A stretch of 64,000 nucleotides of DNA, taken from a virus. Below are positions 25,097 to 47,602 of this stretch, piece after piece. Under the pieces are notes generated by a model. It made no database searches, was not told the DNA's origin, and was given only the letters and a program-made list of their open reading frames with translations. Numbering within the stretch: position 1 is the first letter of the stretch; the number at the start of each line of letters is the position of its first letter. The position numbers and the translations under genes were made by a program. Location: IMG/VR virus record IMGVR_UViG_3300020392_000010, positions 21,192 to 85,191 of that record, one strand, 5' to 3'.

Positions 25097-25867
25097 ATGG
25101 AGAAAGAATTAATTAATAAACAATTCTTAGGAACAGTTGAAGATTCTAGAGACCCTGATTTAGAAGGAAAATGCAAGGTTAGAGTATTTGGTATACATGG
25201 AGAAAAAATACCTATAGAAGATTTACCTTGGGCTTATCCAAAACAAAAATCATTATATTTTGGTAAAGATGGAAAAGCAGGCGCCATATCTATACCCAAG
25301 GACGGAGCAGTTGTAGCCGTTAGATTTGATAATGGAAACATATATTCCCCTGAATATTATGCAGTACAGGAATTAGCAGATGACATAAAAGAAGAATTAC
25401 AAAAAGAAGGTGAATATCATGGATCTCATTTTTTATTATTTGATGGAGATGAAGAATTAAAAGTATGGTTTACTAAGGAAAAAGGAATAACCATGCAACT
25501 AAAAGGATCTAGAATAAATATAGGTCAGGATAAAAAGATTGAAATAGAGCACGATCAAACACAATCAATTATTACATTAAAAGGATCAGAAATAGAAGTA
25601 ATAGCAGATAGTAAAATAAGCCTATCTTCAAATACTAAGATAGAACTTAACTCAAACGATATACATGTAAATGGAAAAAACGTTGTGTTAGGACCAAATA
25701 AATCACTTGCACAACCTGCAGTTTTAGGTACTTCACTTGTAACTGCTCTTTCTACAATGGCCGCTGTTATAGACACTAAATGGCCTCCAACCCCAGGGGC
25801 AACCACTGCTTCTATAACTCAAATACAACAAACTTTTTTATCTAAAACAACTAAGGTGACTCCTTAA
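25097..25867 (+). CDS. Baseplate central spike (gp5/gpV-like OB fold + beta-helix, no lysozyme)
   Basis: FLGTVEDSRDPDLEGKCKVRVFGIH...DLPWAYP...IPKDGAVVAVRF. Confidence 0.8.
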   Translation: MEKELINKQFLGTVEDSRDPDLEGKCKVRVFGIHGEKIPIEDLPWAYPKQKSLYFGKDGKAGAISIPKDGAVVAVRFDNGNIYSPEYYAVQELADDIKEELQKEGEYHGSHFLLFDGDEELKVWFTKEKGITMQLKGSRINIGQDKKIEIEHDQTQSIITLKGSEIEVIADSKISLSSNTKIELNSNDIHVNGKNVVLGPNKSLAQPAVLGTSLVTALSTMAAVIDTKWPPTPGATTASITQIQQTFLSKTTKVTP

Positions 25868-26472
25868 CGATAAAGATTACTAATATGTTCATATGGAAAA
25901 TACTTATTTATTCTAGAATTAGGAGTAACAGAGACTACGTTAAATCCTCGCGTCTGTAAAACTCTAAAATTATTTAGTATTCTAGAAAATCTAGAATCGT
26001 ACCACTTTTTATCAGCGTCATTACCTATGCCTTCTATCCTATTTTTTTTCCAAAAGTGACTAGGTGTTTTCCACGCTAAACTAACACCTGAAATATAAAA
26101 AGTAGTATCCTTTTTACTAAATGTATTTCTTTCTAAAATATCGATAGCCGTTGTTACGCAATCAGGGAATTTTTTTTTATTTGGTCTAGGGTATAGCTCA
26201 ATATAGTCAGGCATAGCTATTCTATTCCTAACACATTGTTTTTCAAGCCAATCGCTTGATACTATTTTAGTGTGTTTTTTAAGTTGCTCTAATTCCCTTG
26301 GGCAATTATCTAATTCTTGAAATATTTTAGGATCATTAAAAAACAAATAATTAGGTATAAGCTTCATCCAGGCCCTATTGGTTCCTACTGTTATTACATT
26401 TTGTGAAATTCTGGTAAAGTCTATTCTATCAATAGAAGGACCATTGCCAATAAGTAATACTTTATTTTTCAT
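25864..26472 (-). CDS. Sialyltransferase-like protein (Maf/DUF115/GT42-type motif)
   Basis: VLLIGNGPSI...TVGTNR...PNYLFFND...YISGVS. Confidence 0.55.
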   Translation of the reverse strand: MKNKVLLIGNGPSIDRIDFTRISQNVITVGTNRAWMKLIPNYLFFNDPKIFQELDNCPRELEQLKKHTKIVSSDWLEKQCVRNRIAMPDYIELYPRPNKKKFPDCVTTAIDILERNTFSKKDTTFYISGVSLAWKTPSHFWKKNRIEGIGNDADKKWYDSRFSRILNNFRVLQTRGFNVVSVTPNSRINKYFPYEHISNLYR

Positions 26473-26764
26473 TTAACCAGTCGTAAGAATTCATATTTTT
26501 ATCATCTATGAATAGATCATAGGCGGGTTTTCCCATTTTTAATTCATGGAATTTTAAACCCCATTTATTTAATTGATACATGGTAATGTTTCTATGGTCA
26601 ATACCACTAACAGTGCCCCTTGCTGTCCACATTATTATAGTATTGCCCTTATCATATAACGTATTAACTTTATCTATAGCTTCAGGTATAGGGTACGCTG
26701 TATCATATCTCATAGGCTCAGCTAGCCTGCATATAGTATCGTCTATGTCTATGTAAATTACCAT
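26462..26764 (-). CDS. Capless HAD-family phosphatase (capsule-biosynthesis type)
   Basis: IYIDIDDTI motif I, WTARG motif II, KP..DLFIDDK motifs III/IV. Confidence 0.85.
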   Translation of the reverse strand: MVIYIDIDDTICRLAEPMRYDTAYPIPEAIDKVNTLYDKGNTIIMWTARGTVSGIDHRNITMYQLNKWGLKFHELKMGKPAYDLFIDDKNMNSYDWLNEK

Positions 26765-26800
26765 CTTTTTGTTTTATCTATCTTGTATATAAATACTAAA

Positions 26801-27610
26801 TTAAAAATCATAATTATTTTTTTCAAAACATTTTACATAAAATGGAAAGCTAATATACATTACATGTTTAATTTCATTTTCAGTAGCTATCCTAGATATG
26901 TATTCAAAATCTTCAAACTTATTTTGTGAATTAGTATCGCACCATTCCCATTTAGGGTATCCTCTTTTATGTATAATATTTGCGGTTGAAGCAGATACGA
27001 CATCTTTACTTGAACCCTTTATTACGTCTTTTAAAGAAATCCACATATCAGGTAATCCGTTTATTTTAAATGGCTCTCCTCTCTTTTGTTTTATTATTGA
27101 TCCTTCAGGTTTTTCTCCGTTAGAAATATTATCATATTTTTTATAATTATATACTAAGCTGTTATTTATAATATAGCGTATATCTAATGAACTTTCTTTT
27201 TTAGGAAAATCTGATATTTTTTTTATCATATTACATAACTTGAAAATAGAATTTTTTAAAATATAATCATCTGAATCTAGATACATTATCCAATCTCCCT
27301 TTGCATTTTCTACCCCTTTTTGCTTTGGTAATCCTCGTTTATAATTGCCATTTGAATTCATAAGTGTTTCATCAGATTTAGGTATTTTAATTAATCTAAT
27401 ATCTTTGTAGTGTTTAAAATACGTATTGTATATTTGTTCAGTTATGGTGCATCCATCGGAGACTATTATGAGTTCCCAATTTTCTATGGTTTGCAATATT
27501 ACAGAGTACACTGCTCTTATGAATTTTGATTTTGGGTTTTTTCTAGATTCAGGGTAATCCCCTAAATAAGATTGCATTATAATACTTACGTTAATTTCAT
27601 TTTTTATCAT
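26801..27610 (-). CDS. GT2-family glycosyltransferase
   Basis: VSIIM...SVILQTIENWELIIVSDG...AKGDWIMYLDSDD...ED. Confidence 0.88.
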   Translation of the reverse strand: MIKNEINVSIIMQSYLGDYPESRKNPKSKFIRAVYSVILQTIENWELIIVSDGCTITEQIYNTYFKHYKDIRLIKIPKSDETLMNSNGNYKRGLPKQKGVENAKGDWIMYLDSDDYILKNSIFKLCNMIKKISDFPKKESSLDIRYIINNSLVYNYKKYDNISNGEKPEGSIIKQKRGEPFKINGLPDMWISLKDVIKGSSKDVVSASTANIIHKRGYPKWEWCDTNSQNKFEDFEYISRIATENEIKHVMYISFPFYVKCFEKNNYDF

Positions 27611-28301
27611 AAGGGGTATACTTAAAATTTTTGCAAATCATTTCTGATACATGGTCTGTGCTTTTTAAACTAGCGTGTTCTTTTTTTATACTGTTGTTTA
27701 TAATTACATTTAAAGTTTTTCCACGTAAATGAGATACTGTAAAATTATCAGTTATATCTCTTACTAATTTATTATCAAAGTATATTTTAATTTCGTTTTC
27801 TTTCCATTCTAAACTATATTTGTGAAAATCTTTGCTAGGGCATTTCCAACCTAGCCAGTGGTTTTCAGCACCTATACTATAATTATGTGGCTCTTTTCCT
27901 AGATGCACATTTGTTTGTACTTTAAAAAAATTTCCCCATAATGCGTCTATATTCCAATTAAAATAGCTTGATTTTTTATTTGAATACCCTTCAAATACGT
28001 CTATTTCAGGTGGCCAACTTTCCCATGCCCACATCCAAAAAGCCGGCCATAAATAAGGTCCTTTTGGTAATTTAATATCTATGTCAAATCTACCATATCC
28101 AAATTTTTCAGTACAGTGAATTAGCCCTACCCCATATGGTGAAGTAACACCGTCTATTTCCTTTGGGTTGTAATGAGTTTTTAATATTAGATCCTCTCCT
28201 TGTATTTCAACAGCCGATTTATCATACCAACATTCTGGTTTTCCAGGGTGCATAAGACCCCATCTCTCTCCAACTTTCCATGTGTATCCTTGCCATTTCA
28301 T
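27597..28301 (-). CDS. GH16 glycoside hydrolase
   Basis: FGYGRF...LWPAFWMW...WPPEIDVFEG (ExDxxE), FHKYSLEW. Confidence 0.9.
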   Translation of the reverse strand: MKWQGYTWKVGERWGLMHPGKPECWYDKSAVEIQGEDLILKTHYNPKEIDGVTSPYGVGLIHCTEKFGYGRFDIDIKLPKGPYLWPAFWMWAWESWPPEIDVFEGYSNKKSSYFNWNIDALWGNFFKVQTNVHLGKEPHNYSIGAENHWLGWKCPSKDFHKYSLEWKENEIKIYFDNKLVRDITDNFTVSHLRGKTLNVIINNSIKKEHASLKSTDHVSEMICKNFKYTPYDKK

Positions 28302-28381
28302 AAAATTAATATTTATTATTATATATTAATGCCTATTTTATCAACTGTGTGTTAAATGTAAATATCAACATGCAGCTGCCT

Positions 28382-28389
28382 TATAAATA
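28382..28389 (+). promoter_or_regulatory. Late-promoter-like TATAAATA heading the methyltransferase operon
   Basis: Exact T4 late consensus ending 5 nt before the 28395 ATG. Confidence 0.5.
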
Positions 28390-28394
28390 AATAT

Positions 28395-28967
28395 ATGAAA
28401 AACAAAGAACTACTTAAGGATTTAAAAGAATATGATAGATTTGGAAAAGATAAAGAAATATCTAAGGAAATATCTAAGGAAATAGGCGTTAGCGAATCAG
28501 TATTTACATATGGTTCTACTCCATATGAAACAGCTTTAGCATTAATAAAATCAGTTAATAAAAAACCTAGTAGATTTGTAGTTGTTGGAACAAGTATAGG
28601 TTGGATGAATTTTTACTGGAATGAAATATATCCAAATATACCCTCTCTAGGTATAGACATACACTATGGTAGAATTGAATTTGGAAATTCTTTAATTAAA
28701 AAACATAAACTATCTAATATAGAATTAAAAGTAGATGATTTATATAAATTTTCATTTAAAGATACTGATTTAATATGGTTAAGCAACTGCTGTTTTGATA
28801 CAAATGAAAATGCGAAAATAGTAAATGATATAATTGCAAAAAACCCTAATGTTTCTATAATTTCATATAAACCGTTTGATTCTAGCGTAAGGAGTAAAGT
28901 TACTAGACACAGTTTAGCCGTTAGCTGGATGCCACTTCAACCCTTTTGGGTGTATGATACGAAATAA
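28395..28967 (+). CDS. DOT1-like class I SAM-dependent methyltransferase
   Basis: TYGST, FVVVGTSIG, GIDI, LIWLSNCCF, IISYKPF, AVSW run colinearly with DOT1 motifs YGET, FVDLGSGVG, GVE, VIFVNNFAF, IVSSKPF, SVSW. Confidence 0.7.
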   Translation: MKNKELLKDLKEYDRFGKDKEISKEISKEIGVSESVFTYGSTPYETALALIKSVNKKPSRFVVVGTSIGWMNFYWNEIYPNIPSLGIDIHYGRIEFGNSLIKKHKLSNIELKVDDLYKFSFKDTDLIWLSNCCFDTNENAKIVNDIIAKNPNVSIISYKPFDSSVRSKVTRHSLAVSWMPLQPFWVYDTK

Positions 28968-28976
28968 ATTTATAAA

Positions 28977-29945
28977 ATGAAAAAATTTGATATAGCATAT
29001 GTTTCTTCAAATATTTCATTTCTATTAGACTGTTATATTAATTCTTACAAAGGTTTAAATCTTTGTATAATAGATATGAAAGATGATTTAGGTGGGGCAT
29101 GGCAAATATCAGATGCTAGAGTACATTTACAATGGGTAAGTAATGAACATAAAAAATATATTTCTGTCATTAATGAGGACTTAAAAAAAGTTGATAGTAA
29201 ATTTCAAATAAAAGGGCCGCTTAAAAATGTTAAAACAATAGAGGATAAAAAATATACAGATTATTCACTTTATCACATTAATTTGGGTTCTAATTTGTTT
29301 ATAGAAGAGCTTGTTGAAAAAATTAAACGTAAAAACAATGTTGAAATAATTAAAGATAATATTAAAGAAGTTACGTTAGAGAATAATGTTTTTAATATTT
29401 TTGGTAAAGAAACTTACTTATCTAACAAATTATATTTGACTAATAATTTAAAATTAGATAAAATAGCTTTAAATAAAAAGGAATATAAATTGTATTCACA
29501 GGATAAAAAATATAATCACCTTTTTATTGAGGTTAAATCTAAAGATATTAAACCGTTAGACATTTTAATATGTGAAGGAAATGGCTTTAAATGGGATGGT
29601 AGAGAAATGTTTAATGCTGAAAAACAAAAAATTCATAGAAATTTGAATAATTCTTTGTTCTTTATGATAAACGTAAGTGAGTTATATAAAGATTTAAAAA
29701 ATACTCAACTTTTTTCATGTCGAATAAAAAATAAAAACTTTATAGAAGATTTTAAAAATTATTTACTTTATAACAATATAACAGAAAAAGATGTGGAAAT
29801 AAAAATATTAGAAGATGATGAGTATACCCAACATAGGCTCATAAATGCATACGCAATACCAAAAACCAAAAATTTAGAAATATTTACACAGATGAATTAT
29901 TTTAAATATTTAGTAAAATTAAATCAATTGAGAAATGAATATTAA
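28977..29945 (+). CDS. Degenerate FAD/NAD-binding oxidoreductase-like protein
   Basis: FDIAYVSSNIS...LCIIDMKDDLGGAW follows the D.xIIGxGxxG...IIE....LGG.W layout but lacks the glycines. Confidence 0.45.
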   Translation: MKKFDIAYVSSNISFLLDCYINSYKGLNLCIIDMKDDLGGAWQISDARVHLQWVSNEHKKYISVINEDLKKVDSKFQIKGPLKNVKTIEDKKYTDYSLYHINLGSNLFIEELVEKIKRKNNVEIIKDNIKEVTLENNVFNIFGKETYLSNKLYLTNNLKLDKIALNKKEYKLYSQDKKYNHLFIEVKSKDIKPLDILICEGNGFKWDGREMFNAEKQKIHRNLNNSLFFMINVSELYKDLKNTQLFSCRIKNKNFIEDFKNYLLYNNITEKDVEIKILEDDEYTQHRLINAYAIPKTKNLEIFTQMNYFKYLVKLNQLRNEY

Positions 29946-30567
29946 AAAAGGATACAGTATACCTAAATGTTTAGAACTAAGACAATCGCCATTGCACGGA
30001 CTCGGCTGCTTTGCAATAGAATTTATTCCAGCTGGTAGTAATTTAGGTATTTGTCACTATTATGACTATAGTGAAAGACCAGTTAAACATTTAAGAAACC
30101 CCATGGTTGGTTTTTTTAATTACTCAGTCAATAAAAACGCATGGCTACCTATAGTGAAAAAAGAATTTATAAATGGAAACGGTTGGGTTACTGAACTGGT
30201 AACAACCAAAGATATAGAAAAAGGTGAAGAAATTTTATTAAGGTATAGTTGGTATGACCCTACAAAACCTGATACTAAAAAAAATAAACACTACATTCCC
30301 TTACCGGATTGTGTTTCTATTGAAAAAAGAAATGGGGTGTATACCCTCTATGCAACTAAGGATATTATGAAAGATTTTGATTTTGGGTATTCTCATAGTT
30401 ATTATGATAAATCAGATTTATATGAGCCTAATCCAATAGGAGGATATTTGCTGGAATCTACTATACCTAATTGTGATATGTTTAAAAAAGATAAAGAGCT
30501 ATATTTAAAATCAAAAAGAAATATAAAAAAAGGAGAATCAATAAGCGTAAATTATGAAGTATTATAA
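29935..30567 (+). CDS. Tandem SET-domain protein (lysine methyltransferase-like)
   Basis: Domain 1: SPLHGLGCFA..IPAG..GFFNYS..N..KDIEKGEEILLRY; domain 2: LYATKDI..GGYLLES..PNC..RNIKKGESISVNY. Confidence 0.8.
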   Translation: MNIKKGYSIPKCLELRQSPLHGLGCFAIEFIPAGSNLGICHYYDYSERPVKHLRNPMVGFFNYSVNKNAWLPIVKKEFINGNGWVTELVTTKDIEKGEEILLRYSWYDPTKPDTKKNKHYIPLPDCVSIEKRNGVYTLYATKDIMKDFDFGYSHSYYDKSDLYEPNPIGGYLLESTIPNCDMFKKDKELYLKSKRNIKKGESISVNYEVL

Positions 30568-31312
30568 TTATTTACCGCCTAGCTTAACTCAGTGGTCCCC
30601 TGAATTTGATTGCTCGTACATTTACCCTAAGTATAAAACATATATTGAAAATAATTATATGTTAACTCTAAGGCATAAAAATAAAATAGAATGTGAAACC
30701 ATGAAAAAACTTTATAACAAATATGAAGTTAAAAAGTTTTTTGAAAAGCACGGTTTAAATATACCTACACTATATTGTTATTCTACTAAAGATTCTGATA
30801 TTTCACATGCGTTAAGAGAAAAATATGTTGCTAAACCTGCTCACATGTCAGAGAATGATGGAGTTTTTATTAACGATAAAGACTTTGAAAAAGTAGATAA
30901 AAAACTTAGAGAATGTTTAAAGTCTTCACCAAGATCAACTGAACCGGAAATGATGAAACAAGCTGAAAAAGGCATGTTAGTTGAAGAGTATATTGAACAT
31001 GATTATGAATTTAAGGTATTTGTACTATATGGGTGCCCAATAGTTGGTGATTTAAGAAACGGATCAAAAGAATGGCATAGAGTAGATATGATAGATAAAA
31101 ACAATAATTATTTTAATTGGAATAAGGAATACGAAATATGTAAACATATTGCAAAAGAACTAAAAATAGATTTTTTTAGAATAGATTTTTTTTACAATAA
31201 AAAAGAGGACAAATTTTATGCAGGGGAAATGGCATTTAGACCTTCTACGCTACTTGGTAAAGAAATAGAAAAATTTATACTCTCTAAGTGGAAAAAAATG
31301 GCTAAATACTAA
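30554..31312 (+). CDS. ATP-grasp amide ligase (TupA-like)
   Basis: NKYEVK, YVAKPAHMS, LVEEYI, EFKVFV, FRIDFF, YAGEMAFRP. Confidence 0.8.
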   Translation: MKYYNYLPPSLTQWSPEFDCSYIYPKYKTYIENNYMLTLRHKNKIECETMKKLYNKYEVKKFFEKHGLNIPTLYCYSTKDSDISHALREKYVAKPAHMSENDGVFINDKDFEKVDKKLRECLKSSPRSTEPEMMKQAEKGMLVEEYIEHDYEFKVFVLYGCPIVGDLRNGSKEWHRVDMIDKNNNYFNWNKEYEICKHIAKELKIDFFRIDFFYNKKEDKFYAGEMAFRPSTLLGKEIEKFILSKWKKMAKY

Positions 31313-31749
31313 GAAATTATAAGCTTTCCACAAACTATACCAAGTGCTCCAAATACTATTAGCAAAATCAAACCTAACCATGATCCTTTAGTGGCTCTTT
31401 TAGAATTCATTGCAAATGCAAAATAATAAGAAGCCGCTACAAAAAACAAAATAATGTTTGAAAACAAATCATTTTTAGAAGGATTAGTGTATATAACTAA
31501 TATAGATGCAAGAAACGCTTGAGCAAATGGAAATAACGCTGCGAGAACTATTGTGTATGGTTTTTCATAGTTTACCTTAAGCCACCTAGTAAAAATCCTG
31601 GTCCTTACCTGAAGGCCTTTTATCAGCGTTCTTCTCTTAATATTATACGATATATATGAAGCTCTAAGGTTTAAATAAAGCACAAGAGTATACGTAAATA
31701 TTCCAAGAGTAGGAAGTGCAAAAATACATAGAAACATTAAAATATCCAT
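31309..31749 (-). CDS. Membrane protein (about 4 TM)
   Basis: Several hydrophobic segments in a 146-aa ORF. Confidence 0.55.
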   Translation of the reverse strand: MDILMFLCIFALPTLGIFTYTLVLYLNLRASYISYNIKRRTLIKGLQVRTRIFTRWLKVNYEKPYTIVLAALFPFAQAFLASILVIYTNPSKNDLFSNIILFFVAASYYFAFAMNSKRATKGSWLGLILLIVFGALGIVCGKLIIS

Positions 31750-31860
31750 CGCTGAAATACGTTTATTCTTATATAATAATGGGCTCTCACATAATATGTG
31801 ATTACGTAATATTTTATTGTTAAATATTAAAAATAATTGTAAAATTGCACACTTAATCAG

Positions 31861-32493
31861 CTATATGCCTAATATATTTGATATGTACTCATCGGCTTGT
31901 ACTTTACCCGATAATATATGATTTTTTATAATCTCATTTTGAAGAAATTGCTTATGAAATTTTAGTCTTCCTTTGTTTAATTCTCCTGGGTCAGATGTCT
32001 CTGGAATATAATTCTTGATGTGATGGTTATTGAAATCTGTCTCTGAATACATAGACATTCCAGTTATGTAAAATGATTCAGGGTTCATGTTAATTATTTC
32101 ATCTATGATATAAGTTCCCATTAAAGGAGCTGCCTTAATACGCTTTTTATATTTAAAAAATTCCTTATGTATTAGTCTTATTTTAAGATTAGGGTTTCTA
32201 TATCTCATATATAATTTTCTATAGTCATATTTTAAAGATAAATATTTTAAACCATTTATTCTATAGTCTTTAATAGACATATCCCCATGTATGGCAAAAT
32301 GCTGATTTACATACAAAGAATCACAACGCTTACCGTAATCTTTTTGTAATTCTTTAATTACAGGAAATGCACCGTTTGTTCTAATTACAATATCGTGAGA
32401 ATCTATAAACAGTCCTTTCTTTTTACCAATTAAAGTAACCGCGGGACCTACAAATATTACTCGCTTACCTTTAATAAAGTTACTATAATCCAC
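31861..32493 (-). CDS. GT29-like sialyltransferase
   Basis: Sialylmotif-L-like VIFVGPAVTL....GLFIDSHDIVIRTNGA....DYGKRC; motif-S-like PLMG...YITG; C-terminal H...E. Confidence 0.75.
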   Translation of the reverse strand: MDYSNFIKGKRVIFVGPAVTLIGKKKGLFIDSHDIVIRTNGAFPVIKELQKDYGKRCDSLYVNQHFAIHGDMSIKDYRINGLKYLSLKYDYRKLYMRYRNPNLKIRLIHKEFFKYKKRIKAAPLMGTYIIDEIINMNPESFYITGMSMYSETDFNNHHIKNYIPETSDPGELNKGRLKFHKQFLQNEIIKNHILSGKVQADEYISNILGI

Positions 32494-32497
32494 TTGT

Positions 32498-33355
32498 TTA
32501 TTTTCTAAGAGATTTCATTTTTTCAAGTTCTGATCCTATTACTTTTCTTGGACCATACCCTGACATAGCTTTTTCTATGTCTCTAATACCTTTTACTAGT
32601 TTTATAAGTCCGCCCGGTTCAACTGAAGCCATTTGATCAGAACCCCATAATGTTCTGTCTAATGTAATATGCCTTTCTATCCAAGTAGCACCTATTGGAA
32701 TAGTAGCCATTGTAGTGACTAATCCAAATTCATGCCCTGAATATCCAACTTCTGATTCTGTATTTTTAATAAGCCATTTTATATAGCCTAAATTAAGTTC
32801 ATTTATAGGCGAAGGATATGTTGAATTGGTGTGCATTATTACTTCTGGTTTACAGGTTTTAATGCACTTTTGAACCTCTTCTTCTGTACTCATTCCGGTG
32901 CTTATTATCAAAAAATCAGACTTGTCTTTTGCATACGAACATAGGTCAATGTTTGTTATTAAAGCAGATGGAATCTTCATAATAAAACTACCATGGTTAG
33001 AATAATTATTGTCTGTAATAAAGTCAACGGATAACTTATCCCAAACTGAAACAAACCAACCTATTTCTTTTTCTTGACAATACCTGTCTATTTCGTCAAA
33101 CTCTTTCTTACCAAATTCTATATCATGCTTATACTGAATATATGTAATTTCTTCTTCTCTCCATGGAACACGCTTAGGTTTATTTTTTTGATCATCAGGT
33201 ACGCATATATCGGGTGTTCTTTTTTGAAATTTTACCCAATTACAACCTGCTACACACGCTGCGTCTATTAGTTTTTTTGCGTTATCTAAAAACTTAGATT
33301 TATCGTTTCCATATGCATAATTTATGCCTATTTCAGCTATTATTTTTACAGCCAT
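32498..33355 (-). CDS. neuB: Nonulosonic (sialic) acid synthase, NeuB family, lacking C-terminal SAF domain
   Basis: IIAEIGIN, VKFQKR, KIPSA, IISTGMS, HTNSTYP, GYSGHE, IERHITLDR, GSDQ. Confidence 0.93.
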   Translation of the reverse strand: MAVKIIAEIGINYAYGNDKSKFLDNAKKLIDAACVAGCNWVKFQKRTPDICVPDDQKNKPKRVPWREEEITYIQYKHDIEFGKKEFDEIDRYCQEKEIGWFVSVWDKLSVDFITDNNYSNHGSFIMKIPSALITNIDLCSYAKDKSDFLIISTGMSTEEEVQKCIKTCKPEVIMHTNSTYPSPINELNLGYIKWLIKNTESEVGYSGHEFGLVTTMATIPIGATWIERHITLDRTLWGSDQMASVEPGGLIKLVKGIRDIEKAMSGYGPRKVIGSELEKMKSLRK

Positions 33356-33356
33356 G

Positions 33357-33992
33357 CTATTTTTTATTTTTTTTAAACTCGTTTAAATCATCTAACGTAT
33401 CTACATCTATCACTTTTTTATTTATGGGTAAAAAATAAGTATTGTTATTATATAAGTTATTATTTAAATTATTTATTACATTTGACTTAAACAAACATAT
33501 ATAATGACTTAATTCAAAGCATTCAGGGTAATCTTGTCTTCTATATAAATCATGATGAAAAAGTTGAGAACCTTTGTTATTTTTTTCCTCTTTTAGCATC
33601 AAAAAAGGACTAATATCTAGTGGGTGCTTACATAATAAAGAGTCTAGATTAAGCGAGTCAAAACAAACCATAGCTGTTTGAACATCTTTCCATTTCCTAA
33701 GCGGATAGGTTAAATATAACATTAAAATCGTTTCATCTAGTATATTTAAAGTATCTATAGTATATTTCATTATATCTTTAGAAGAAGCTTTATCAGAAGA
33801 CACCTCTGGTGTTCTATTTAAAACATTAAACTTATATTTAATGGCCTGTTTTTTTATATGTTCGTCATCTGTAGTTACATATGTTAAGTGCTTCATTGCT
33901 TCTGGTATAATATTAGCAGTATATTCAAATAGTTTTCTATTTTTTAAAGGAACGCCTTTTGAACCTTTTCTAGCTGGTATAATTATTTTCAT
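33357..33992 (-). CDS. neuA: Acylneuraminate cytidylyltransferase (CMP-nonulosonate synthetase)
   Basis: IIPARKGSKGVPLKN, LTYPLR, RRQD, DVDTLDD. Confidence 0.92.
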   Translation of the reverse strand: MKIIIPARKGSKGVPLKNRKLFEYTANIIPEAMKHLTYVTTDDEHIKKQAIKYKFNVLNRTPEVSSDKASSKDIMKYTIDTLNILDETILMLYLTYPLRKWKDVQTAMVCFDSLNLDSLLCKHPLDISPFLMLKEEKNNKGSQLFHHDLYRRQDYPECFELSHYICLFKSNVINNLNNNLYNNNTYFLPINKKVIDVDTLDDLNEFKKNKK

Positions 33993-34597
33993 AAAGATTT
34001 AAATTTTTCTATTGATATTTTAGGTAATGAATCTATTTTACTATCTTGACTTAAATTATAAAAGTCTACGTTTCTTTTATTTAATTGTAACTTTAATACT
34101 CTATAGCCTTCGTTAACTTGTTTCAATTTATTCATTTGCGATAAAGGATGATCACCATCTTTTATATAAAAGTGATGAGGTGTAAAATCAACGCCTATTA
34201 ACCCTATTTTTGAAAAACCCATTTTATAAGCTATGCATACGGCTACATAAGGTGAATTTAAACAGTAATCAACTTTATTATCTGAATCTAGATTGGAAAG
34301 CCTACGATTTCCTAGCTCAAAAATTATTGTTTTTTTATTATTCCAGCCTTTTACGCATGTAAATAAAGCTTTAGTAGAAGATTCAGTTATTAAATTTCTT
34401 CTATTTTGATTAAATCTAATTGGGTGATCTGTTACTACTAAATAAGTAGGGGTAAATAGTGCTGGTACATCATTAACACCTATTGTTATAAAGTTTTTAT
34501 AGTTACTTTTTATTTTATTTAAAGACACGCCGCAACCGCATACTATAACAGACTCTCCTTTATGAATATTTTTAAAGTTTGATAAAGTATTTGTCAT
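33989..34597 (-). CDS. Sialyltransferase-like protein (Maf/DUF115-type motif)
   Basis: FKNIHKGESVIVCGCGVSL...TIGVN...AYKMGFSKIGLIGVDF; probable start ATG 34597. Confidence 0.65.
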   Translation of the reverse strand: MTNTLSNFKNIHKGESVIVCGCGVSLNKIKSNYKNFITIGVNDVPALFTPTYLVVTDHPIRFNQNRRNLITESSTKALFTCVKGWNNKKTIIFELGNRRLSNLDSDNKVDYCLNSPYVAVCIAYKMGFSKIGLIGVDFTPHHFYIKDGDHPLSQMNKLKQVNEGYRVLKLQLNKRNVDFYNLSQDSKIDSLPKISIEKFKSL

Positions 34598-34652
34598 TTT
34601 CGATATATAAATTAAACTACATTGTTTTATACAAAAAAACCTAATCAATGTT

Positions 34653-35597
34653 TTGAATAAAAATTATTATAAAATATTAGAAGTAGAAGAAAACGCTACT
34701 CAAAAAGATATAAAGGCATCATATAGAAAATTAGCTAAAAAATATCACCCCGATACAAATAAAGAAAATAAATCATATGAAGAAAAATTTAAACAAGTAG
34801 CTGAGGCATATGATACACTAGGAGATTCTGAAAAAAGAAAAAACTACGATGAATCTAGAAGAAATCCATATCAAAGAAATAATTTTGGAGGATTTAAACA
34901 ATCCGGATTTGGATTTGAAGGAGGGTTTGGATTTGACGAATTTGTAAAAAGCGCATTTAATAGAAATAGCGCAAGAAATAATAATACCAGTAGATTAAAT
35001 ATAAAAGTTAAAACACAGGCTGATCTACAGGATTTAATTAATGAATCTGAAATAAAAGTTTTATTTGAGAGAAAACTTTTTGATAAATCAAAAGAAAATA
35101 AAGAAATAAAGTTTAAAATAGATTTAAGAAAAAGAAAATATGATATTAGAAAAATATCAAATGATTATGTTATAGTCATAAAACTATCGGGTTTAGGGGA
35201 CGAACTAAAAGGAATACGAAATAACGCATGGGGAGGATCAGAAGAATTTCATGCAATAGGTGATCTAATAGTTGAAATAAAAATAATATCTAAAGTTGAT
35301 TTTAAAATAGAAGACGGAAACATACATGAAAACATAAACATAAACCTATATGATGTGCTGTTTAATAAAGACAGGGACTACATAGTAAATTCTGCCCTTG
35401 GTAAAAAATATAGATTAGATATATGTAATCCAAAAAATTTAAGCTCTTTAAAATTTACTGTTAAATCTAATGGAGTAGTAGGTAATAATAATAAATTAGG
35501 AGACTATGTTGCTAACTTAATAGTTAACTCTCCAGATTTAAGTAAAATGAATAATCAAGACTTAAAAAATTTAAAGGATATTTTATCTAAAGTATAA
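34653..35597 (+). CDS. dnaJ: DnaJ-family co-chaperone without Zn finger
   Basis: [38 protein letters not shown]; G/F-rich linker. Confidence 0.88.
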
Positions 35598-35669: not shown

Positions 35670-37673
35670 GTGAATAATTCAAGCTTAAAACCAAGTAATT
35701 TCATAGACGTTTCTGATAAAAAAGAAAATGATTTAGTATTGATCGTTGAAAACGTAGGTGAAAAACTTAATGTAAAAACCAATGAAACTAACAACACTAT
35801 TTTAGAAGGTGTATGCGCAGTTTTTGGACAAAAGAATAACAATCAAAGAGTTTACGAAAAAGATGAATACTTGCCTCATCTAGAATACTTAAAGGAAAAA
35901 ATTAAGACAAGGCAACTTGTTGGAGATTTAGATCATCCGCCTTCTTTTGAAGTTACTCTTAAAAGCGCTTCTCATATAATTGAAGGCTTAGACCATGATG
36001 GAGGAGATAAAGTAAACATTAAACTTAGAATTTTAGAAAACACGCCAAATGGAAAAATTGCAAAAGCATTAATAGATGGAGGAGTTAATATATCTATTTC
36101 ATCGAGAGCAGCAGGTCAAGTTTTAAACGAAGGTAAAGTTAAACTTCATAGAATATTTACATACGATTTAGTTGCTGAACCGGGGTTTACAGAAGCTGTT
36201 TTAAAGAAAACAGTTAACGAATCCTTAAAAGAAAATTTCGAAATGATAACTGAAAATTATAGTTTATTAAAAGAAAATTCTTTTATAAATAAAGAAAAGT
36301 TAGAAGATATCTCTGAAAATTTAAATTTTTCAAATAATTATAAATTTTACAAGATAAATAACAAAAATAATAAAGAGCTGACTAATAGTTTAAGCAATCA
36401 AAATAATAAGAGCAAAATGAACGAGTATGTTAATAAAAATGATATGAATCATTATACTGAGATAGTTAAAGAGAAATTTGAATCATTACAAGCTGAAATG
36501 GACAAAATTAAGTCTGTTAATGAAGCTGATTCAAAAGAGGTGAAAACAACAGATGTTTCACCAACTTCAGGTATTGGAAAATACGTTAATTATTTAGCTG
36601 AAAAAGTAGAAAACTTAACTAAGTACACTGACTACTTGTCTGGTAAATTAAACCAATCTGTTAAGTACACTGAACATGTAGCCGAAACTACTAACAATAG
36701 TATAGAATATCAAAACTACATTGGTGAAAAACTTAATCAGAGTTTAAATTATCAAAACTATTTAGGTGAAAACTTAAATAAAAGCATTAATTACCAAGAT
36801 TATTTAAAAGAGAACTTAAATAAAAGTATTAATTATCAAACATACCTTGCTGAAGAATTAGATAAAGGCATTCAATATACTGAATATGTAGCAGAAGGTG
36901 CTAATAAAGGAATTGAATTTGCTGAATATATTGCTGAAAATGCTCAAATGAATAGAGAATACGTTGAATACGTAGCAGAAAAATCTTCAAAAGGAATTAG
37001 TTATGCTGAATATATTGCTGAATCATTAAACTCAGGTAAATTTACTCCTAATTCTAACTTATTAAGCAATGTTAGCGGATTAAATGAAAACAAGCAAATT
37101 GAAATGATTACTGAAGGAATAGATGCTGTAATAAACACAGTCAAAAGTGAATCAGCTAGTGCCGTACTAGAAAATAAATATCCTTTCTTAAAAGTATTAT
37201 CTGAAAAGAAAAAAGAAGCATTTTATGATCTAGATACTAATACTAAACAAGCTGTTGTAGAAGCAGTTAGAGCTTCAGTATGGTTTAATGAAGCAGATGT
37301 AACTGGTATTATTAGTGCAGTCGTAGAAAACGCTAATAAGTCTATTCCAAACCATCTTAGATATATGCCAGATGAGTATAAAGCATCTTGGGAGAAGATG
37401 AATGAAGCTGAAAAAAATCAAATTCATACTAAAACTCAACTTTATACTTTAAATACTCCTTATCAAGTTAAATCTTTCTGGGATGAAATAGATTTCAGAG
37501 GAATTAATGAAAGAATTGAAAGAGAAAAAGAAAATAGAAAATTACAACAAATCAACGAGAGCCAAAGTACAGAAGGTGCAATCCCGGTAGACAGGGTAGT
37601 TGATATGACGAGAGGTTACTCTCAGACTTACATAGACTCTCTTATGAGAGGTGCGGAAAATCGCAACAAATAA
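35670..37673 (+). CDS. gp21: Prohead protease (gp21-like) fused to scaffold/core domain
   Basis: ILEGV..KNNNQRVY, GDLDHP, ASH, TPNGKI, ISSRAAG, YDLVAEPGF; then about 420 aa helical repeat region; directly upstream of major capsid gene. Confidence 0.88.
   Translation: MNNSSLKPSNFIDVSDKKENDLVLIVENVGEKLNVKTNETNNTILEGVCAVFGQKNNNQRVYEKDEYLPHLEYLKEKIKTRQLVGDLDHPPSFEVTLKSASHIIEGLDHDGGDKVNIKLRILENTPNGKIAKALIDGGVNISISSRAAGQVLNEGKVKLHRIFTYDLVAEPGFTEAVLKKTVNESLKENFEMITENYSLLKENSFINKEKLEDISENLNFSNNYKFYKINNKNNKELTNSLSNQNNKSKMNEYVNKNDMNHYTEIVKEKFESLQAEMDKIKSVNEADSKEVKTTDVSPTSGIGKYVNYLAEKVENLTKYTDYLSGKLNQSVKYTEHVAETTNNSIEYQNYIGEKLNQSLNYQNYLGENLNKSINYQDYLKENLNKSINYQTYLAEELDKGIQYTEYVAEGANKGIEFAEYIAENAQMNREYVEYVAEKSSKGISYAEYIAESLNSGKFTPNSNLLSNVSGLNENKQIEMITEGIDAVINTVKSESASAVLENKYPFLKVLSEKKKEAFYDLDTNTKQAVVEAVRASVWFNEADVTGIISAVVENANKSIPNHLRYMPDEYKASWEKMNEAEKNQIHTKTQLYTLNTPYQVKSFWDEIDFRGINERIEREKENRKLQQINESQSTEGAIPVDRVVDMTRGYSQTYIDSLMRGAENRNK
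36573..37028 (+). repeat. About 11 degenerate 14-aa (42-nt) repeats, consensus N(K/Q)S(I/L)xY(Q/A/T)xY(L/I/V)xE
   Basis: NNSIEYQNYIGEKL/NQSLNYQNYLGENL/NKSINYQDYLKENL/NKSINYQTYLAEEL/DKGIQYTEYVAEGA/NKGIEFAEYIAENA... Confidence 0.9.
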
Positions 37674-47368: not shown

Positions 47369-47602
47369 ATGAAGAAGAATGTTGTAATGAACCACGCTCA
47401 ATTCATGGCTGCTGCCAATGCAGCTGCTGCAAAATACACTGTTAAAGCTAATACTGCTCAGAAAGATGAAAGCGGTACTAAAGTAAAACAAGATTTATCT
47501 AAAGTTGAGGGACAGGGTACTGCTTCTATCCAAAGATTTACTAAGTCATTTTTAGCAAAAGCTAAAAGTAAAAAAGTAGTAGGCGGAGGAAAGAAAAAAT
47601 AA
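47369..47602 (+). CDS. Small Ala/Lys-rich basic protein
   Basis: 77 aa ending AKAKSKKVVGGGKKK; GATAAATA at 47340. Confidence 0.65.
   Translation: MKKNVVMNHAQFMAAANAAAAKYTVKANTAQKDESGTKVKQDLSKVEGQGTASIQRFTKSFLAKAKSKKVVGGGKKK

What the first reader, a model, noticed from the sequence alone, without database searches (positions are those of the whole stretch)
28382..31312. Late operon with DOT1-like and tandem-SET methyltransferases, a degenerate FAD-oxidoreductase and an ATP-grasp ligase: candidate phage protein-modification system
Seen: four tightly coupled + strand genes behind a TATAAATA, inserted among minus-strand glycan genes. ORF 28395 has six motifs colinear with DOT1 (YGST, VGTSIG, GID, LSNCCF, IISYKPF, VSW). 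ORF 29935 has two SET repeats: the first keeps GxG, NYS (for NHS) and GEE...Y; the second is degenerate. ORF 30554 is an ATP-grasp ligase. Known: DOT1 and SET are the two unrelated folds of histone lysine methyltransferases; ATP-grasp enzymes can add amino acids to proteins or glycans; LSD1-type demethylases are FAD oxidases. Inference: a late-expressed toolkit that methylates and acylates lysines of virion or DNA-packing proteins. Candidate substrates in the window are the 77-aa basic protein (47369) and the poly-Lys tail at about 19025-19070. Alternative: tailoring of the neighbouring glycan, since TupA-like ligases are often polysaccharide-linked. I do not know of this four-gene combination being described in a phage.
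Basis: partly seen in the sequence, partly recalled or inferred. Interest (0 to 1): 0.85.

Follow-up and report, generated by a model that had tools for sequence, protein, structure and literature searches.

The report
Phage methyltransferase, SET, ATP-grasp cassette
An uncultured marine T4-like phage carries a conserved, mobile four-gene cassette (two lysine-methyltransferase-like enzymes, an amide-forming ligase and an orphan protein) that probably decorates a protein or glycan made late in infection, but its target is still unknown.

Summary
The four overlapping + strand genes and the TATAAATA are real. ORF 29935 is a true tandem SET protein. ORF 30554 is a divergent ATP-grasp of the TupA/sugar-transfer type. 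ORF 28395 is a class I methyltransferase that misses Pfam's DOT1 cut-off. Its best solved relatives are the protein-lysine methyltransferases PKMT1/2, and it is distantly related to clear DOT1 genes that sit beside it in relatives. ORF 28977 is an orphan; its FAD-oxidoreductase reading rests on a motif and an embedding search only.

New here:
- The cassette recurs in 17 contigs in different phage backgrounds.
- Its constant core is the methyltransferase plus an ATP-grasp. These two are fused into one 476-aa protein in 12 metagenome loci.
- SET, the orphan and a DOT1 paralogue are optional.
- The cassette is independent of the surrounding sialic-acid-type island: 0 of 45 relatives sharing the baseplate gene carry it, and 0 of 5 other cassette-bearing records have NeuB.

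Best reading (0.4): late-made enzymes that N-methylate lysines and add amide-linked groups on virion or virion-associated proteins. Glycan-amine tailoring (0.25) is a serious rival.

I found no description in the literature searched. This scan had already noted the same cassette on other DNA (e1-5763025).

The parts
28382..28389 (+). TATAAATA, a candidate T4-type late promoter element 5 nt upstream of the first ATG
   Evidence: Sequence read. Positional enrichment of the motif before ORF starts: 6/20 against 7.7% for same-composition 8-mers. AATAAATA sits at the same offset in the close relatives L011/L017. Not shown to be functional; no RNA run holds the stretch.
28395..28967 (+). MT: class I SAM-dependent methyltransferase, related to DOT1 and PKMT; core gene of the cassette
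   Evidence: Pfam: Methyltransf_31 7.1e-5, DOT1 0.017, both below cut-off. Family tally: 8/8 match Methyltransf_31 and Methyltransf_25, 6/8 match DOT1, best 1.9e-4. PDB profile search: 5doo (PKMT2) 6.5e-10, 5dnk (PKMT1) 7.4e-6, Dot1 chains 0.65-0.67. hhalign to the DOT1 paralogues MT2: 70.6%, E 3.9e-5. Fused to the ATP-grasp in P0115-P0117: hhalign 99.8%, E 6e-29.
28977..29945 (+). U: orphan 322-aa protein with a Rossmann-like N-terminus that lacks GxGxxG (SSNISF instead) but keeps D33 and LGGAW; optional member
   Evidence: No Pfam, PHROG, NCBIfam or PADLOC family. 18 close homologues only. 7 representatives at E<=1e-3 among 1.84 billion proteins. No meaningful PDB match. Atlas feature neighbours are Amino_oxidase/NAD_binding_8 clusters, score 0.96 but only about 154 shared features. 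Absent from L011/L012/L017 and L018-L020.
29935..30567 (+). SET: tandem SET-domain protein. The first unit (about aa 1-110) has GxG, N-Y-S and the conserved Tyr. The second (about aa 117-210) lacks GxG and N-H/Y-S but keeps the Tyr.
   Evidence: Pfam SET 4.3e-12, 46.8 bits against a cut-off of 22.4, two stretches. phrog_28741 1.2e-20. PBCV-1 vSET 1n3j E 3.7e-4 with the motifs aligned. The two halves are homologous: hhalign 93.7%, E 1.9e-7. Aligned with single-unit phage SETs.
30554..31312 (+). AG: small ATP-grasp amidoligase of the TupA / sugar-transfer-associated type; core gene of the cassette
   Evidence: Pfam ATPgrasp_ST 3.4e-4, below cut-off. Family tally: 12/20 match ATPgrasp_ST (best 4.2e-7), 11/20 match ATPgrasp_TupA (best 7e-9). 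90 homologues, all from metagenomes. PurK-type match over the E-x-A-x-R-P region. Invariant K94, E144, E145, D211, E225.
27597..28301 (-). GH16 glycoside hydrolase, a recurrent neighbour of the cassette (divergent here)
   Evidence: Pfam Glyco_hydro_16 4.1e-18. Nearest solved relatives are laminarinases / endo-beta-1,3-glucanases, E 3.9e-9 and weaker. Next to the cassette in 7 of 17 contigs (window, L009/L013, L010/L014, L011, L012, L017, L025). Absent from the 45 cassette-less relatives.

Best explanation
This is a self-contained, horizontally mobile phage cassette.

Shown:
- The obligatory core is a class I N-methyltransferase (MT) working with an ATP-grasp amidoligase (AG). The two are adjacent in most contigs, are replaced by non-orthologous ATP-grasp-like genes in some, and are fused into one polypeptide in others.
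- In this phage the core has been joined by a tandem SET protein and by an orphan protein with a decayed dinucleotide-binding motif. The SET protein has one unit that looks catalytically intact and one degenerate unit.
- The cassette sits between the baseplate hub gene and the DnaJ / protease / major-head genes, behind a T4-type late motif.

Inferred:
- The enzymes are made late.
- They act on one macromolecular substrate. MT and SET N-methylate lysine epsilon-amines with SAM. AG uses ATP to make an acyl-phosphate on a carboxylate and joins it to an amine, either adding an amino compound or amidating Asp, Glu or a C-terminus.
- The most likely substrate is one or more virion or virion-associated proteins of the phage.
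- The second SET unit probably serves as a built-in partner subunit. This rests on my recall that PBCV-1 vSET works as a dimer.
- U is an accessory substrate-binding or regulatory protein.
For: Cassette conservation: 17 distinct contigs (window, 15 IMG/VR contigs, 1 single-cell genome contig) hold MT or AG.
- MT lies beside an ATP-grasp in 15 of 17: the AG family in 12, and other ATP-grasp-like ORFs in L003, L004 and L005.
- SET is present in 11 of 17, U in 5 of 17, and a DOT1-type second methyltransferase in at least 6 of 17.

Fusion:
- Three 476-aa proteins carry MT at the N-terminus and AG at the C-terminus.
- 12 of 16 metagenome loci span both domains.

Three different methyltransferase lineages recruited to the cassette all have protein-lysine methyltransferases as their nearest characterised relatives:
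- MT: PKMT2/PKMT1.
- MT2: LpDot1 9ne1 at 1.3e-19, the protein-lysine methyltransferase chains 5fa8/5jwj, and DOT1L; NCBIfam prot_lys_mtase_Arch 5.4e-13.
- SET: PBCV-1 vSET.

Late or structural neighbourhoods in separate lineages:
- Baseplate hub and head genes in the window.
- Tail sheath in L016.
- A single SET just upstream of gp25 and the baseplate wedge gene in cyanophage P-RSM6.
- Late-type motif before the first gene in the window, L011/L017 and L016/L004.

Independence from the glycan island: 0 of 45 baseplate-sharing relatives carry MT, U or AG, although 28 carry island genes. NeuB is found in 0 of 5 other cassette-bearing records.

Background from the literature:
- Methylated lysines occur on marine phage proteins, including in free virions, in phages that encode no methyltransferase (PMC13288928, abstract and passages).
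- One TupA-like ATP-grasp, CfmP, is linked to a protein modification of fimbriae (PMC13419641, passages).
Against: - No substrate is identified and nothing here shows activity.
- AG falls in the TupA/ATPgrasp_ST clade. Its only biochemically shown member in the papers I read, Cj1438C, amidates glucuronic acid in a capsule. Pfam describes ATPgrasp_ST as sugar-transfer associated.
- In the window lineage the cassette lies inside a glycan island, and a GH16 glycanase accompanies it in 7 of 17 contigs.
- In two relatives a single SET gene is translationally coupled to NeuB inside the glycan operon.
- MT fails the DOT1 cut-off. Its similarity to PKMT lies mainly in the SAM-binding core.
- The first SET unit has Tyr for the His of the NHS motif in most homologues.
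- No gene other than the cassette members is shared by all lineages, so no candidate target stands out.
- The 77-aa basic protein proposed as substrate was found in 0 of 5 other records.
- The contigs counted are not independent. Several are near-identical pairs, and all records are 15-80% complete.
- Late expression is inferred from a motif only (one search lists no RNA holder).
Confidence: 0.4

Rival explanations
1. Glycan tailoring. AG amidates the carboxylate of a uronic or ulosonic acid residue in a phage-directed or host surface glycan with an amino compound such as lysine, ethanolamine or serinol. MT and SET then N-methylate the free amine of that substituent. GH16 acts on the same polymer.
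For: - AG family matches: ATPgrasp_TupA in 11/20 (best 7e-9) and ATPgrasp_ST in 12/20 (best 4.2e-7).
- The TupA-like domain Cj1438C forms an amide on the C6 carboxylate of GlcA in a capsule (PMC11800379, passages). TupA-like enzymes are predicted to add amino acids to surface polymers (PMC13419641, passages).
- In the window the cassette lies among GT2, GT29-like, NeuB, a 211-aa ORF that I read as a CMP-sugar synthetase (no family match obtained; PHROGs gave none), and HAD genes.
- GH16 adjoins the cassette in 7 of 17 contigs.
- A single SET gene overlaps NeuB by 4 nt in the same operon in L044 and L045.
- Lysozyme or amidase genes adjoin other versions.
Against: - The cassette and the NulO island occur independently: 0 of 45 island-region relatives have MT, U or AG, and 0 of 5 other cassette records have NeuB (records 44-80% complete).
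- No glycosyltransferase lies beside the cassette in L016, L018-L020 or the fused loci.
- To my recollection no SET-domain, DOT1 or PKMT-type enzyme is known to methylate anything but protein residues.
- Weak J-domain links (L004 fusion, L016 neighbour) point to proteins.
Confidence: 0.25
2. Host take-over. The enzymes modify host proteins (for example DnaK or its clients, EF-Tu, nucleoid or envelope proteins) to redirect the cell, in the way T4 ADP-ribosyltransferases or Legionella and chlorovirus methyltransferases act on host targets.
For: - Nearest characterised relatives act on another organism's or compartment's proteins: LpDot1 methylates host SFPQ (bioRxiv 10.64898/2026.01.11.698932, abstract), and vSET is the best SET match.
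- A J-domain-like segment is fused to the DOT1 paralogue in L004 and adjacent to it in L016 (Pfam DnaJ E 0.0033 and 0.0023, below cut-off). A DnaJ-zinc-finger-like ORF lies near the fusion in L032.
- A full DnaJ gene lies 3.3 kb downstream in the window.
- Virocell-specific methylation of DnaK and EF-Tu has been reported in a marine phage-host system (PMC13288928, passages).
Against: - The position and the motif suggest late rather than early expression.
- By my inspection of the translations, none of the four proteins has the N-terminal aromatic-x-x-aromatic...E tag that earlier notes (e1-6120717, e1-6120730) propose for packaged cargo. This was checked by eye only.
- The J-domain hits are all below Pfam's cut-off.
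- DnaJ is part of the conserved backbone next to the protease in relatives without the cassette, so its nearness in the window is uninformative.
Confidence: 0.15
3. Small-molecule or peptide biosynthesis. AG ligates an amino acid or amine to a free carboxylate and the methyltransferases make an N-methylated metabolite or a modified peptide.
For: - ATP-grasp plus methyltransferase pairs build metabolites in other systems (recalled).
- AG gives weak NCBIfam matches to ATP-grasp peptide maturases: GRASP_w_spasm 1.1e-5 and MvdC 6.4e-4, far below their cut-offs.
- All four proteins deal with amines or carboxylates by family.
Against: - No precursor-peptide gene or other biosynthetic gene is conserved next to the cassette.
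- SET, DOT1 and PKMT relatives are protein-directed.
- The cassette sits in structural rather than metabolic regions.
Confidence: 0.08
4. The four genes are unrelated passengers of a hypervariable island with no joint function.
For: - The region between the baseplate hub gene and DnaJ is hypervariable in relatives: 9 of 45 have no island, 28 have island genes and 8 have other or no detected content.
- SET occurs alone in P-RSM6 and Kolga.
- U is optional.
Against: - MT and AG are fused in 12 loci.
- The same gene order recurs in unrelated phage backgrounds with overlapping reading frames.
Confidence: 0.04

Closest known systems
DOT1 family protein-lysine methyltransferases (LpDot1 of Legionella, PDB 9NE1; the protein-lysine methyltransferase chains 5fa8/5jwj, which I recall as archaeal aKMT4; DOT1L)
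   Same: Class I fold. YG[ST/E] element before motif I and the SN..F / ..SYKPF / VSW elements in the same order. True family members (MT2) sit next to MT in relatives: Pfam DOT1 1.3e-11 and 1.2e-12; 9ne1 at 1.3e-19. The 9NE1 = LpDot1 identity was checked in the preprint.
   Different: The window's MT does not reach the family threshold (15.1 against 23 bits; own-genome DOT1 search E 0.0079). It matches solved Dot1 chains only at E 0.65-0.67. The window has no MT2. The substrates of the known enzymes (histone H3, SFPQ, and by my recollection archaeal chromatin proteins) do not exist in a phage-bacterium system.
Protein lysine methyltransferases 1 and 2 (PDB 5dnk, 5doo; recalled as Rickettsia PKMT1/PKMT2, which methylate outer membrane protein B)
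   Same: Best solved relatives of the MT profile (E 7.4e-6 and 6.5e-10 over profile positions 60-171). They multiply methylate lysines of a surface protein (recalled).
   Different: The PKMTs are 535-554 residues with large extra domains; MT is 190 aa. The match covers mainly the SAM-binding core.
PBCV-1 vSET (PDB 1n3j), a minimal viral SET-domain H3K27 methyltransferase
   Same: A SET unit of about 100-120 residues without flanking domains. GxG, N-H/Y-S and the C-terminal Tyr align. Viral origin.
   Different: Here two units are fused in one chain and the second has lost GxG and N-H-S. The host has no histones. vSET's dimeric working form is recalled, not tested here.
TupA-like / sugar-transfer-associated ATP-grasp amidoligases (Cj1438 C-terminal domain of Campylobacter jejuni; CfmP of Klebsiella)
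   Same: Family-level Pfam matches. Conserved ATP-grasp residues. An amide-forming chemistry is expected.
   Different: The window protein is below both Pfam cut-offs. It stands alone or is fused to a methyltransferase rather than to a glycosyltransferase. It occurs mostly without polysaccharide genes.
FAD amine oxidases of the LSD1 / polyamine oxidase kind
   Same: For U only: a beta-alpha-beta N-terminus ending in an acidic residue, followed by LGGAW. Atlas feature neighbours carry Amino_oxidase and NAD_binding_8.
   Different: GxGxxG is replaced by SSN[IL][SA]F in the close homologues, and by SSN-type variants such as SSNPIF in the remote ones. There is no Pfam, PDB or remote HMMER link. 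U is about 320 aa, whereas I recall amine oxidases as being about 450 aa or longer. FAD binding is doubtful.

Membership tests
DOT1 (Pfam PF08123), for ORF 28395 | Score at or above the curated gathering cut-off (23 bits) | tested here: not met
   15.1 bits, E 0.017, only residues 109-166 matched. The own-genome search gave 11.3 bits. Among 8 family members, 6 match at E<=0.1, best 1.9e-4.
DOT1 (Pfam PF08123), for ORF 28395 | Profile-level kinship to undoubted DOT1-family proteins | tested here: inconclusive
   hhalign of A1 against the MT2 alignment: probability 70.6%, E 3.9e-5, 121 columns, with YG[ST] aligned to YGE. PDB Dot1 chains at E 0.65-0.67. Atlas nearest clusters carry DOT1 on 38-100% of members.
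DOT1 (Pfam PF08123), for ORF 28395 | Methylation of a protein lysine | not testable with these tools
   Needs an enzyme assay.
SET domain (Pfam PF00856), for ORF 29935 | Score above the gathering cut-off | tested here: met
   46.8 bits against 22.4, E 4.3e-12, two stretches. Both stretches were also found in the genome search.
SET domain (Pfam PF00856), for ORF 29935 | SAM-binding GxG and N-H-S motifs and the conserved C-terminal Tyr (the roles of these motifs are recalled) | tested here: inconclusive
   First unit: HGLGCF, FFNYS (His replaced by Tyr; NHN in L003) and GEEILLRY, aligned to vSET's GGYGVF, FNHS and GEEITISY. Second unit: no GxG, LES in place of NHS, Tyr kept.
SET domain (Pfam PF00856), for ORF 29935 | SET fold with its knot-like C-terminus | not testable with these tools
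TupA-like / ATPgrasp_ST ATP-grasp (PF14305, PF14397), for ORF 30554 | Score above the gathering cut-off | tested here: not met
   The window protein scores 20.3 bits against 31.4 for ATPgrasp_ST. Across the family, 12/20 and 11/20 members match at E<=0.01. Precomputed PF14305 or PF14397 is recorded on 4 of 90 homologues and on 1 of 3 fusions.
TupA-like / ATPgrasp_ST ATP-grasp (PF14305, PF14397), for ORF 30554 | Conserved ATP-grasp nucleotide- and metal-binding residues | tested here: met
   K94, E144, E145, K154, D211 and E225 are invariant in 20 sequences. The E-x-A-F-R-P segment aligns to PurK's E-I-A-P-R. The assignment of roles to these residues is recalled.
TupA-like / ATPgrasp_ST ATP-grasp (PF14305, PF14397), for ORF 30554 | Placement in a cell-surface polysaccharide gene cluster | tested here: inconclusive
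   True in the window and in L011/L012/L017. Not so in L016, L018-L020, L021/L022 or the fused loci. NeuB in 0 of 5 other records.
FAD amine oxidase (PF01593 / NAD_binding_8), for ORF 28977 | Family match by profile | tested here: not met
   No Pfam hit except DUF4508 at E 0.0067 with no qualifying stretch. No PDB relative. Only 7 representatives, all family fragments or low-complexity, in 1.84 billion proteins.
FAD amine oxidase (PF01593 / NAD_binding_8), for ORF 28977 | GxGxxG dinucleotide-binding motif | tested here: not met
   S10 S11 N12 I13 and F15 are invariant in 19 sequences. The same SSN variant occurs in the remote homologues P0111 and P0113.
FAD amine oxidase (PF01593 / NAD_binding_8), for ORF 28977 | Two-domain FAD/substrate fold | not testable with these tools
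The Atlas holds no model of this protein.

The most novel reading that the evidence does not exclude
A phage-encoded 'writer' system for its own particle. MT and the SET pseudo-dimer (plus a DOT1 paralogue in relatives) methylate surface lysines of virion proteins, and the fused or adjacent ATP-grasp caps carboxylates or adds amino compounds. Together they change the charge, reactivity and protease sensitivity of the particle in seawater. This would be the first dedicated, virus-encoded protein-lysine methylation and ligation machinery described for a bacteriophage. It would also supply the missing enzymes for the recently reported methylation of marine phage virions. A bolder variant, not excluded: the methyltransferases act on a lysine that AG has attached to a glycan, which would be the first non-protein substrate for a SET enzyme.
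Probability: 0.3. Interest if true: 0.8.

Novelty: new variant of a known kind. Interest (0 to 1): 0.6.

Why it matters
Protein methylation of phage particles was reported only in 2026, in phages that have no methyltransferase of their own (PMC13288928, passages). No phage-encoded protein-lysine methylation system is described in the papers I could search.

Here up to three lineages of lysine-methyltransferase-like enzymes travel with an amide ligase through marine and freshwater phages, sometimes as one fused protein. That gives a concrete, cloneable enzyme set with which to test three questions: whether phages chemically edit their virions, their host's proteins or surface glycans; what a minimal tandem SET does in a cell without histones; and what TupA-type ATP-grasps ligate.

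None of MT, U or AG has a relative in 50,697 deposited phage genomes. The system is therefore invisible to work on cultured phages.

Tried and rejected
I used profile searches against PDB sequences and the ESM Atlas instead.
Gene context came from the search for related loci and my own ORF calls.
- DNA-level search of the 4-kb region against phage genomes gave only a 106-bp match.
- A scan of viral contigs with the fusion protein P0117 found nothing. The metagenome scan found it.
- A scan of species genomes with the MT profile gave one contig, from a Prochlorococcus single-cell genome, that looks like phage DNA. There is no evidence of a cellular version.
- A search for a shared partner or substrate gene found none across all lineages. 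Two small families recur in subsets. One is a 73-aa ORF with an LDLHG motif that I recall as Smr-like. The other is an acidic 77-112-aa ORF. Neither has a relative in the window, and Pfam gave nothing for the acidic one. A UVR-motif search of the own genome was empty.
The 77-aa protein was found in 0 of 5 other cassette-bearing records. That search had no positive control and the records are incomplete. The poly-Lys tail was not tested further.
- Expression: no RNA holder is listed for the stretch.
- Sigma-70-like promoters and terminators are not above the shuffle level.
- PADLOC gave only weak generic methyltransferase matches to mad2, so this is not a known defence system.
- Literature: searches for SET domain + ATP-grasp + phage, ATP-grasp + methyltransferase + Dot1 + operon, DOT1/bacteriophage/SET/lysine methyltransferase, SET domain + cyanophage and ATP-grasp + cyanophage + methyltransferase found no description of this cassette. 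The jumbo-phage survey PMC7824862 contains no mention of SET domain or Dot1 (term search). The founding paper on TupA-like ATP-grasps (PMC3268129) is not held, and supplements were closed, so a mention there cannot be excluded.

Full report
SETTING. The window is bases 21192-85191 of an 85-kb IMG/VR virus record estimated to be 33% complete. Its G+C is 25-37%. The region of interest lies between a baseplate hub gene (25097-25867; phrog_430 1.2e-16) and a DnaJ-like gene (34653-35597; Pfam DnaJ 2.6e-25). These are followed by the head maturation protease (35670-37673) and the major head protein (37691-39394). Between them lies a mostly minus-strand glycan island:
- a GT29-like gene;
- NeuB (TIGR03569 8.7e-51);
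- a 211-aa ORF that I read as a CMP-sugar synthetase, for which no family match was obtained (PHROGs gave none);
- two further sialyltransferase-like ORFs, one with phrog_4603 2.7e-5;
- a HAD phosphatase, a GT2 gene and GH16.

Four + strand ORFs lie at 28395, 28977, 29935 and 30554 (190, 322, 210 and 252 aa). A 9-nt gap separates the first two, and the next two junctions overlap by 11 and 14 nt. TATAAATA ends 5 nt before the first ATG. The motif is no commoner in the window than in shuffles (20 against 25.6). However, 6 of its 20 copies lie within 35 nt upstream of an ORF start on the same strand, against 125 of 1632 for same-composition 8-mers. A related AATAAATA sits at the same offset in close relatives, and TATAAATA abuts the first gene of the cassette in L016/L004. 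That TATAAATA is the T4 late promoter is established knowledge that I recall. Its use here is inferred, and no RNA run holds the stretch.

WHAT EACH GENE IS.

MT (28395) is a class I SAM methyltransferase.
- Pfam gives Methyltransf_31 at 7.1e-5 and DOT1 at only 0.017, 15.1 bits against a cut-off of 23, over residues 109-166.
- Of 8 homologues, all match the generic families and 6 match DOT1, best 1.9e-4.
- A profile of the family finds the protein lysine methyltransferases 5doo and 5dnk far ahead of everything else (6.5e-10 and 7.4e-6; the next hit is 0.0044). Dot1 chains come only at 0.65-0.67.
- The Atlas places it among small viral and bacterial clusters in which 38-100% of members carry DOT1.
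- In relatives a second methyltransferase, MT2, sits just upstream and is an unmistakable DOT1-family protein: Pfam 1.3e-11 and 1.2e-12; LpDot1 9ne1 at 1.3e-19; the protein-lysine methyltransferase chains 5fa8/5jwj at 1.4e-13 and 3.6e-12; DOT1L about 1e-6; NCBIfam prot_lys_mtase_Arch 5.4e-13.
- MT against MT2 gives hhalign probability 70.6%, E 3.9e-5, with YG[ST] aligned to YGE.
'DOT1/PKMT-like' is the honest label. The window's own record has no MT2.

U (28977) is an orphan.
- It has no family in four libraries and 18 close homologues.
- Only 7 representatives reach E<=1e-3 among 1.84 billion proteins, and there is no real PDB match.
- Its N-terminus reads like a beta-alpha-beta dinucleotide-binding unit that ends in D33 and LGGAW. 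The GxGxxG position is SSNISF, invariant in 19 sequences, with SSN-type variants such as SSNPIF in the remote homologues.
- The Atlas lists Amino_oxidase/NAD_binding_8 clusters at 0.96, but with only about 154 shared features, which the tool itself marks as a lead.

SET (29935) passes Pfam (46.8 bits, two stretches).
- Its halves are homologous to each other (hhalign 93.7%, E 1.9e-7).
- The first unit aligns end to end with PBCV-1 vSET, including GxG, N-H-S (here N-Y-S) and the final Tyr.
- The second unit lacks GxG and has LES for NHS.

AG (30554) is an ATP-grasp.
- The window protein is sub-threshold (ATPgrasp_ST 3.4e-4).
- Of 20 family members, 12 match ATPgrasp_ST and 11 match ATPgrasp_TupA, best 4.2e-7 and 7e-9.
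- The nucleotide- and metal-binding positions are invariant.
- Its C-terminal motif aligns with PurK.

THE CASSETTE IS CONSERVED AND MOBILE. Searches with MT and AG found 15 IMG/VR contigs and one contig of a Prochlorococcus single-cell genome. With the window that makes 17 contigs. Several are near-identical pairs and all are fragments. The arrangements seen are:
- MT-U-SET-AG in the window.
- MT-U-SET-AG-GH16 in L009/L013 and L010/L014. L025 has the same order, with U split and a membrane ORF inserted.
- GH16(-) | MT-SET-AG in L011, L012 and L017. Their AG is 88% identical to the window's, and they have no U.
- [acidic ORF]-MT2-MT-SET-AG in L006/L020, L007/L018 and L008/L019.
- [J-like ORF]-MT2-MT-AG in L016. 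L015 has MT-AG; its upstream genes were not examined.
- [J-like-DOT1 fusion]-MT-[a different ATP-grasp-like ORF] in L004 and L005.
- MT-U-SET-[another ATP-grasp-like ORF] in L003.
- AG without MT in L021 and L022.

MT therefore lies beside some ATP-grasp in 15 of 17 contigs. SET is present in 11, U in 5 and GH16 in 7.

The strongest link is a natural fusion. Three 476-aa proteins carry MT at the N-terminus (hhalign 99.8%, E 6e-29) and AG at the C-terminus (E 1.5e-72 to 6.2e-78). 12 of 16 metagenome loci span both domains. These loci are phage-like, with GH108 lysozyme, PurA-like, NAD synthase, and SpoVR and DUF444 genes nearby. MT plus an ATP-grasp is thus the functional core. SET, U and MT2 are add-ons. 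SET can also live alone: single-unit SET genes exist in cyanophages P-RSM6 and P-SSM7 and in pelagiphage Kolga, and P-RSM6 and Kolga have no MT or AG.

RELATION TO THE GLYCAN ISLAND. I fetched 45 contigs that share the baseplate hub gene at 43-84% identity.
- 9 run straight from the hub to DnaJ and the protease.
- 28 carry island genes (ST1, HAD, NeuB and others).
- 8 show other content or stop short.
- None has MT, U, AG or GH16.

Conversely, none of 5 other cassette-bearing records (44-80% complete) has NeuB, and 1 of 5 has GH16. The cassette, with GH16, is therefore an insertion into the island in the window's lineage, not part of the nonulosonic-acid pathway.

One result pulls the other way. 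In L044 and L045 a single-unit SET gene with canonical motifs lies on the minus strand inside the glycan operon, overlapping NeuB by 4 nt.

MECHANISM.

Shown:
- gene order;
- conservation;
- the MT-AG fusion;
- family assignments at the levels stated above.

Established chemistry of the families:
- SAM-dependent N-methylation for the DOT1, PKMT and SET relatives;
- ATP-dependent acyl-phosphate formation and amide ligation for ATP-grasp enzymes.

Inferred:
- a single macromolecular target bearing amines and carboxylates;
- synthesis late in infection.

I favour proteins of the virion or proteins associated with it (0.4), for four reasons:
- Three separate lineages whose nearest characterised relatives are all protein-lysine methyltransferases were recruited to the same cassette.
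- The cassette sits in structural or late regions in several backgrounds.
- It is independent of glycan genes.
- Methyl-lysine on marine phage virions has just been reported, without a phage enzyme to explain it.

The glycan-amine rival (0.25) rests on AG's clade, whose shown member Cj1438C amidates glucuronic acid, on GH16, and on the NeuB-coupled SET genes.

Host-protein modification (0.15) rests on the behaviour of LpDot1 and vSET and on weak J-domain links.

NOVELTY. None of MT, U or AG has a relative in 50,697 deposited phage records. Five literature searches and one in-paper term search found no description. The founding ATP-grasp survey and all supplements were out of reach. After my own analysis I found that this scan had already noted the same cassette on other genomes. 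One follow-up (e1-5763025) reached the same main points, namely the fused forms, LpDot1 as closest known and an unknown target. This report agrees with it independently and adds:
- the four-gene variant with U;
- the PKMT link;
- displacement by non-orthologous ATP-grasp genes;
- the 45-relative test of independence from the island;
- the NeuB-coupled single SET genes.

The parts are members or relatives of known families and the combination is undescribed, so I class it as a new variant of a known kind.

Noticed in passing
window 25864-34648; loci L043-L087: The stretch between the baseplate hub gene and the DnaJ / protease / major-head genes is a hypervariable slot. Of 45 relatives, 9 have nothing there, 28 carry a nonulosonic-acid-type island (sialyltransferase-like, HAD, NeuB, CMP-synthetase-like genes) and 8 have other or undetected content.
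   Followed up: partly
L044 4341-4640 (-) and L045 12305-12619 (-): Single-unit SET genes (99 and 104 aa, canonical GxG and NHS/NYS) lie inside the glycan operon. Each overlaps the NeuB gene by 4 nt.
   Followed up: partly
L004 4831-5994; L016 4969-6162: A J-domain-like segment (HPD present; Pfam DnaJ E about 0.003, below cut-off) is fused to a clear DOT1-family methyltransferase in L004. In L016 the two are separate, adjacent genes.
   Followed up: partly
window 27597-28301 (-): The GH16 protein has no obvious signal peptide and contains the sequence EIDVFE, which fits the GH16 catalytic motif as I recall it. Its nearest solved relatives are laminarinases.
   Followed up: partly
L025 1253-2207: In the contig filed under a Prochlorococcus single-cell genome, the U gene is split into two frames near residue 260. 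This could be a frameshift, a sequencing error or decay.
   Followed up: no
L027 6213-7499, L028 8164-9441, L030 11865-13169: In L027 a full-length adenylosuccinate-synthetase-like gene (Pfam 1.3e-167) lies just downstream of the MT-AG fusion; ORFs of similar length sit at the same position in L028 and L030 but were not scanned. Whether the L027 gene is PurA or a PurZ-type enzyme was not examined.
   Followed up: no
L003 5708-5932, L013 7562-7783, L025 386-607: A conserved 73-74-aa ORF with an LDLHG motif (Smr-like by recollection) lies directly upstream of MT in three loci. It is absent from the window.
   Followed up: no
L021 2382-6309, L022 2409-5507: In a different phage type, AG follows His/Met-rich small proteins, a 140-aa class I methyltransferase and several paralogous 180-265-aa proteins. 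The AG reading frame there looks shortened at its N-terminus: the ORFs are 161-185 aa, but the tblastn match spans query residues 12-246.
   Followed up: no
window 47369-47602 and 19020-19070: A 77-aa basic protein ending in GGGKKK, and a KRKKRKKKKKKKSKK run near the C-terminus of the 564-aa ORF 17432-19126.
   Followed up: partly
L042 9905-11281: A stand-alone MT homologue is followed by a 2H phosphoesterase ('Swiss Army Knife' domain, 2.3e-18) instead of an ATP-grasp.
   Followed up: no
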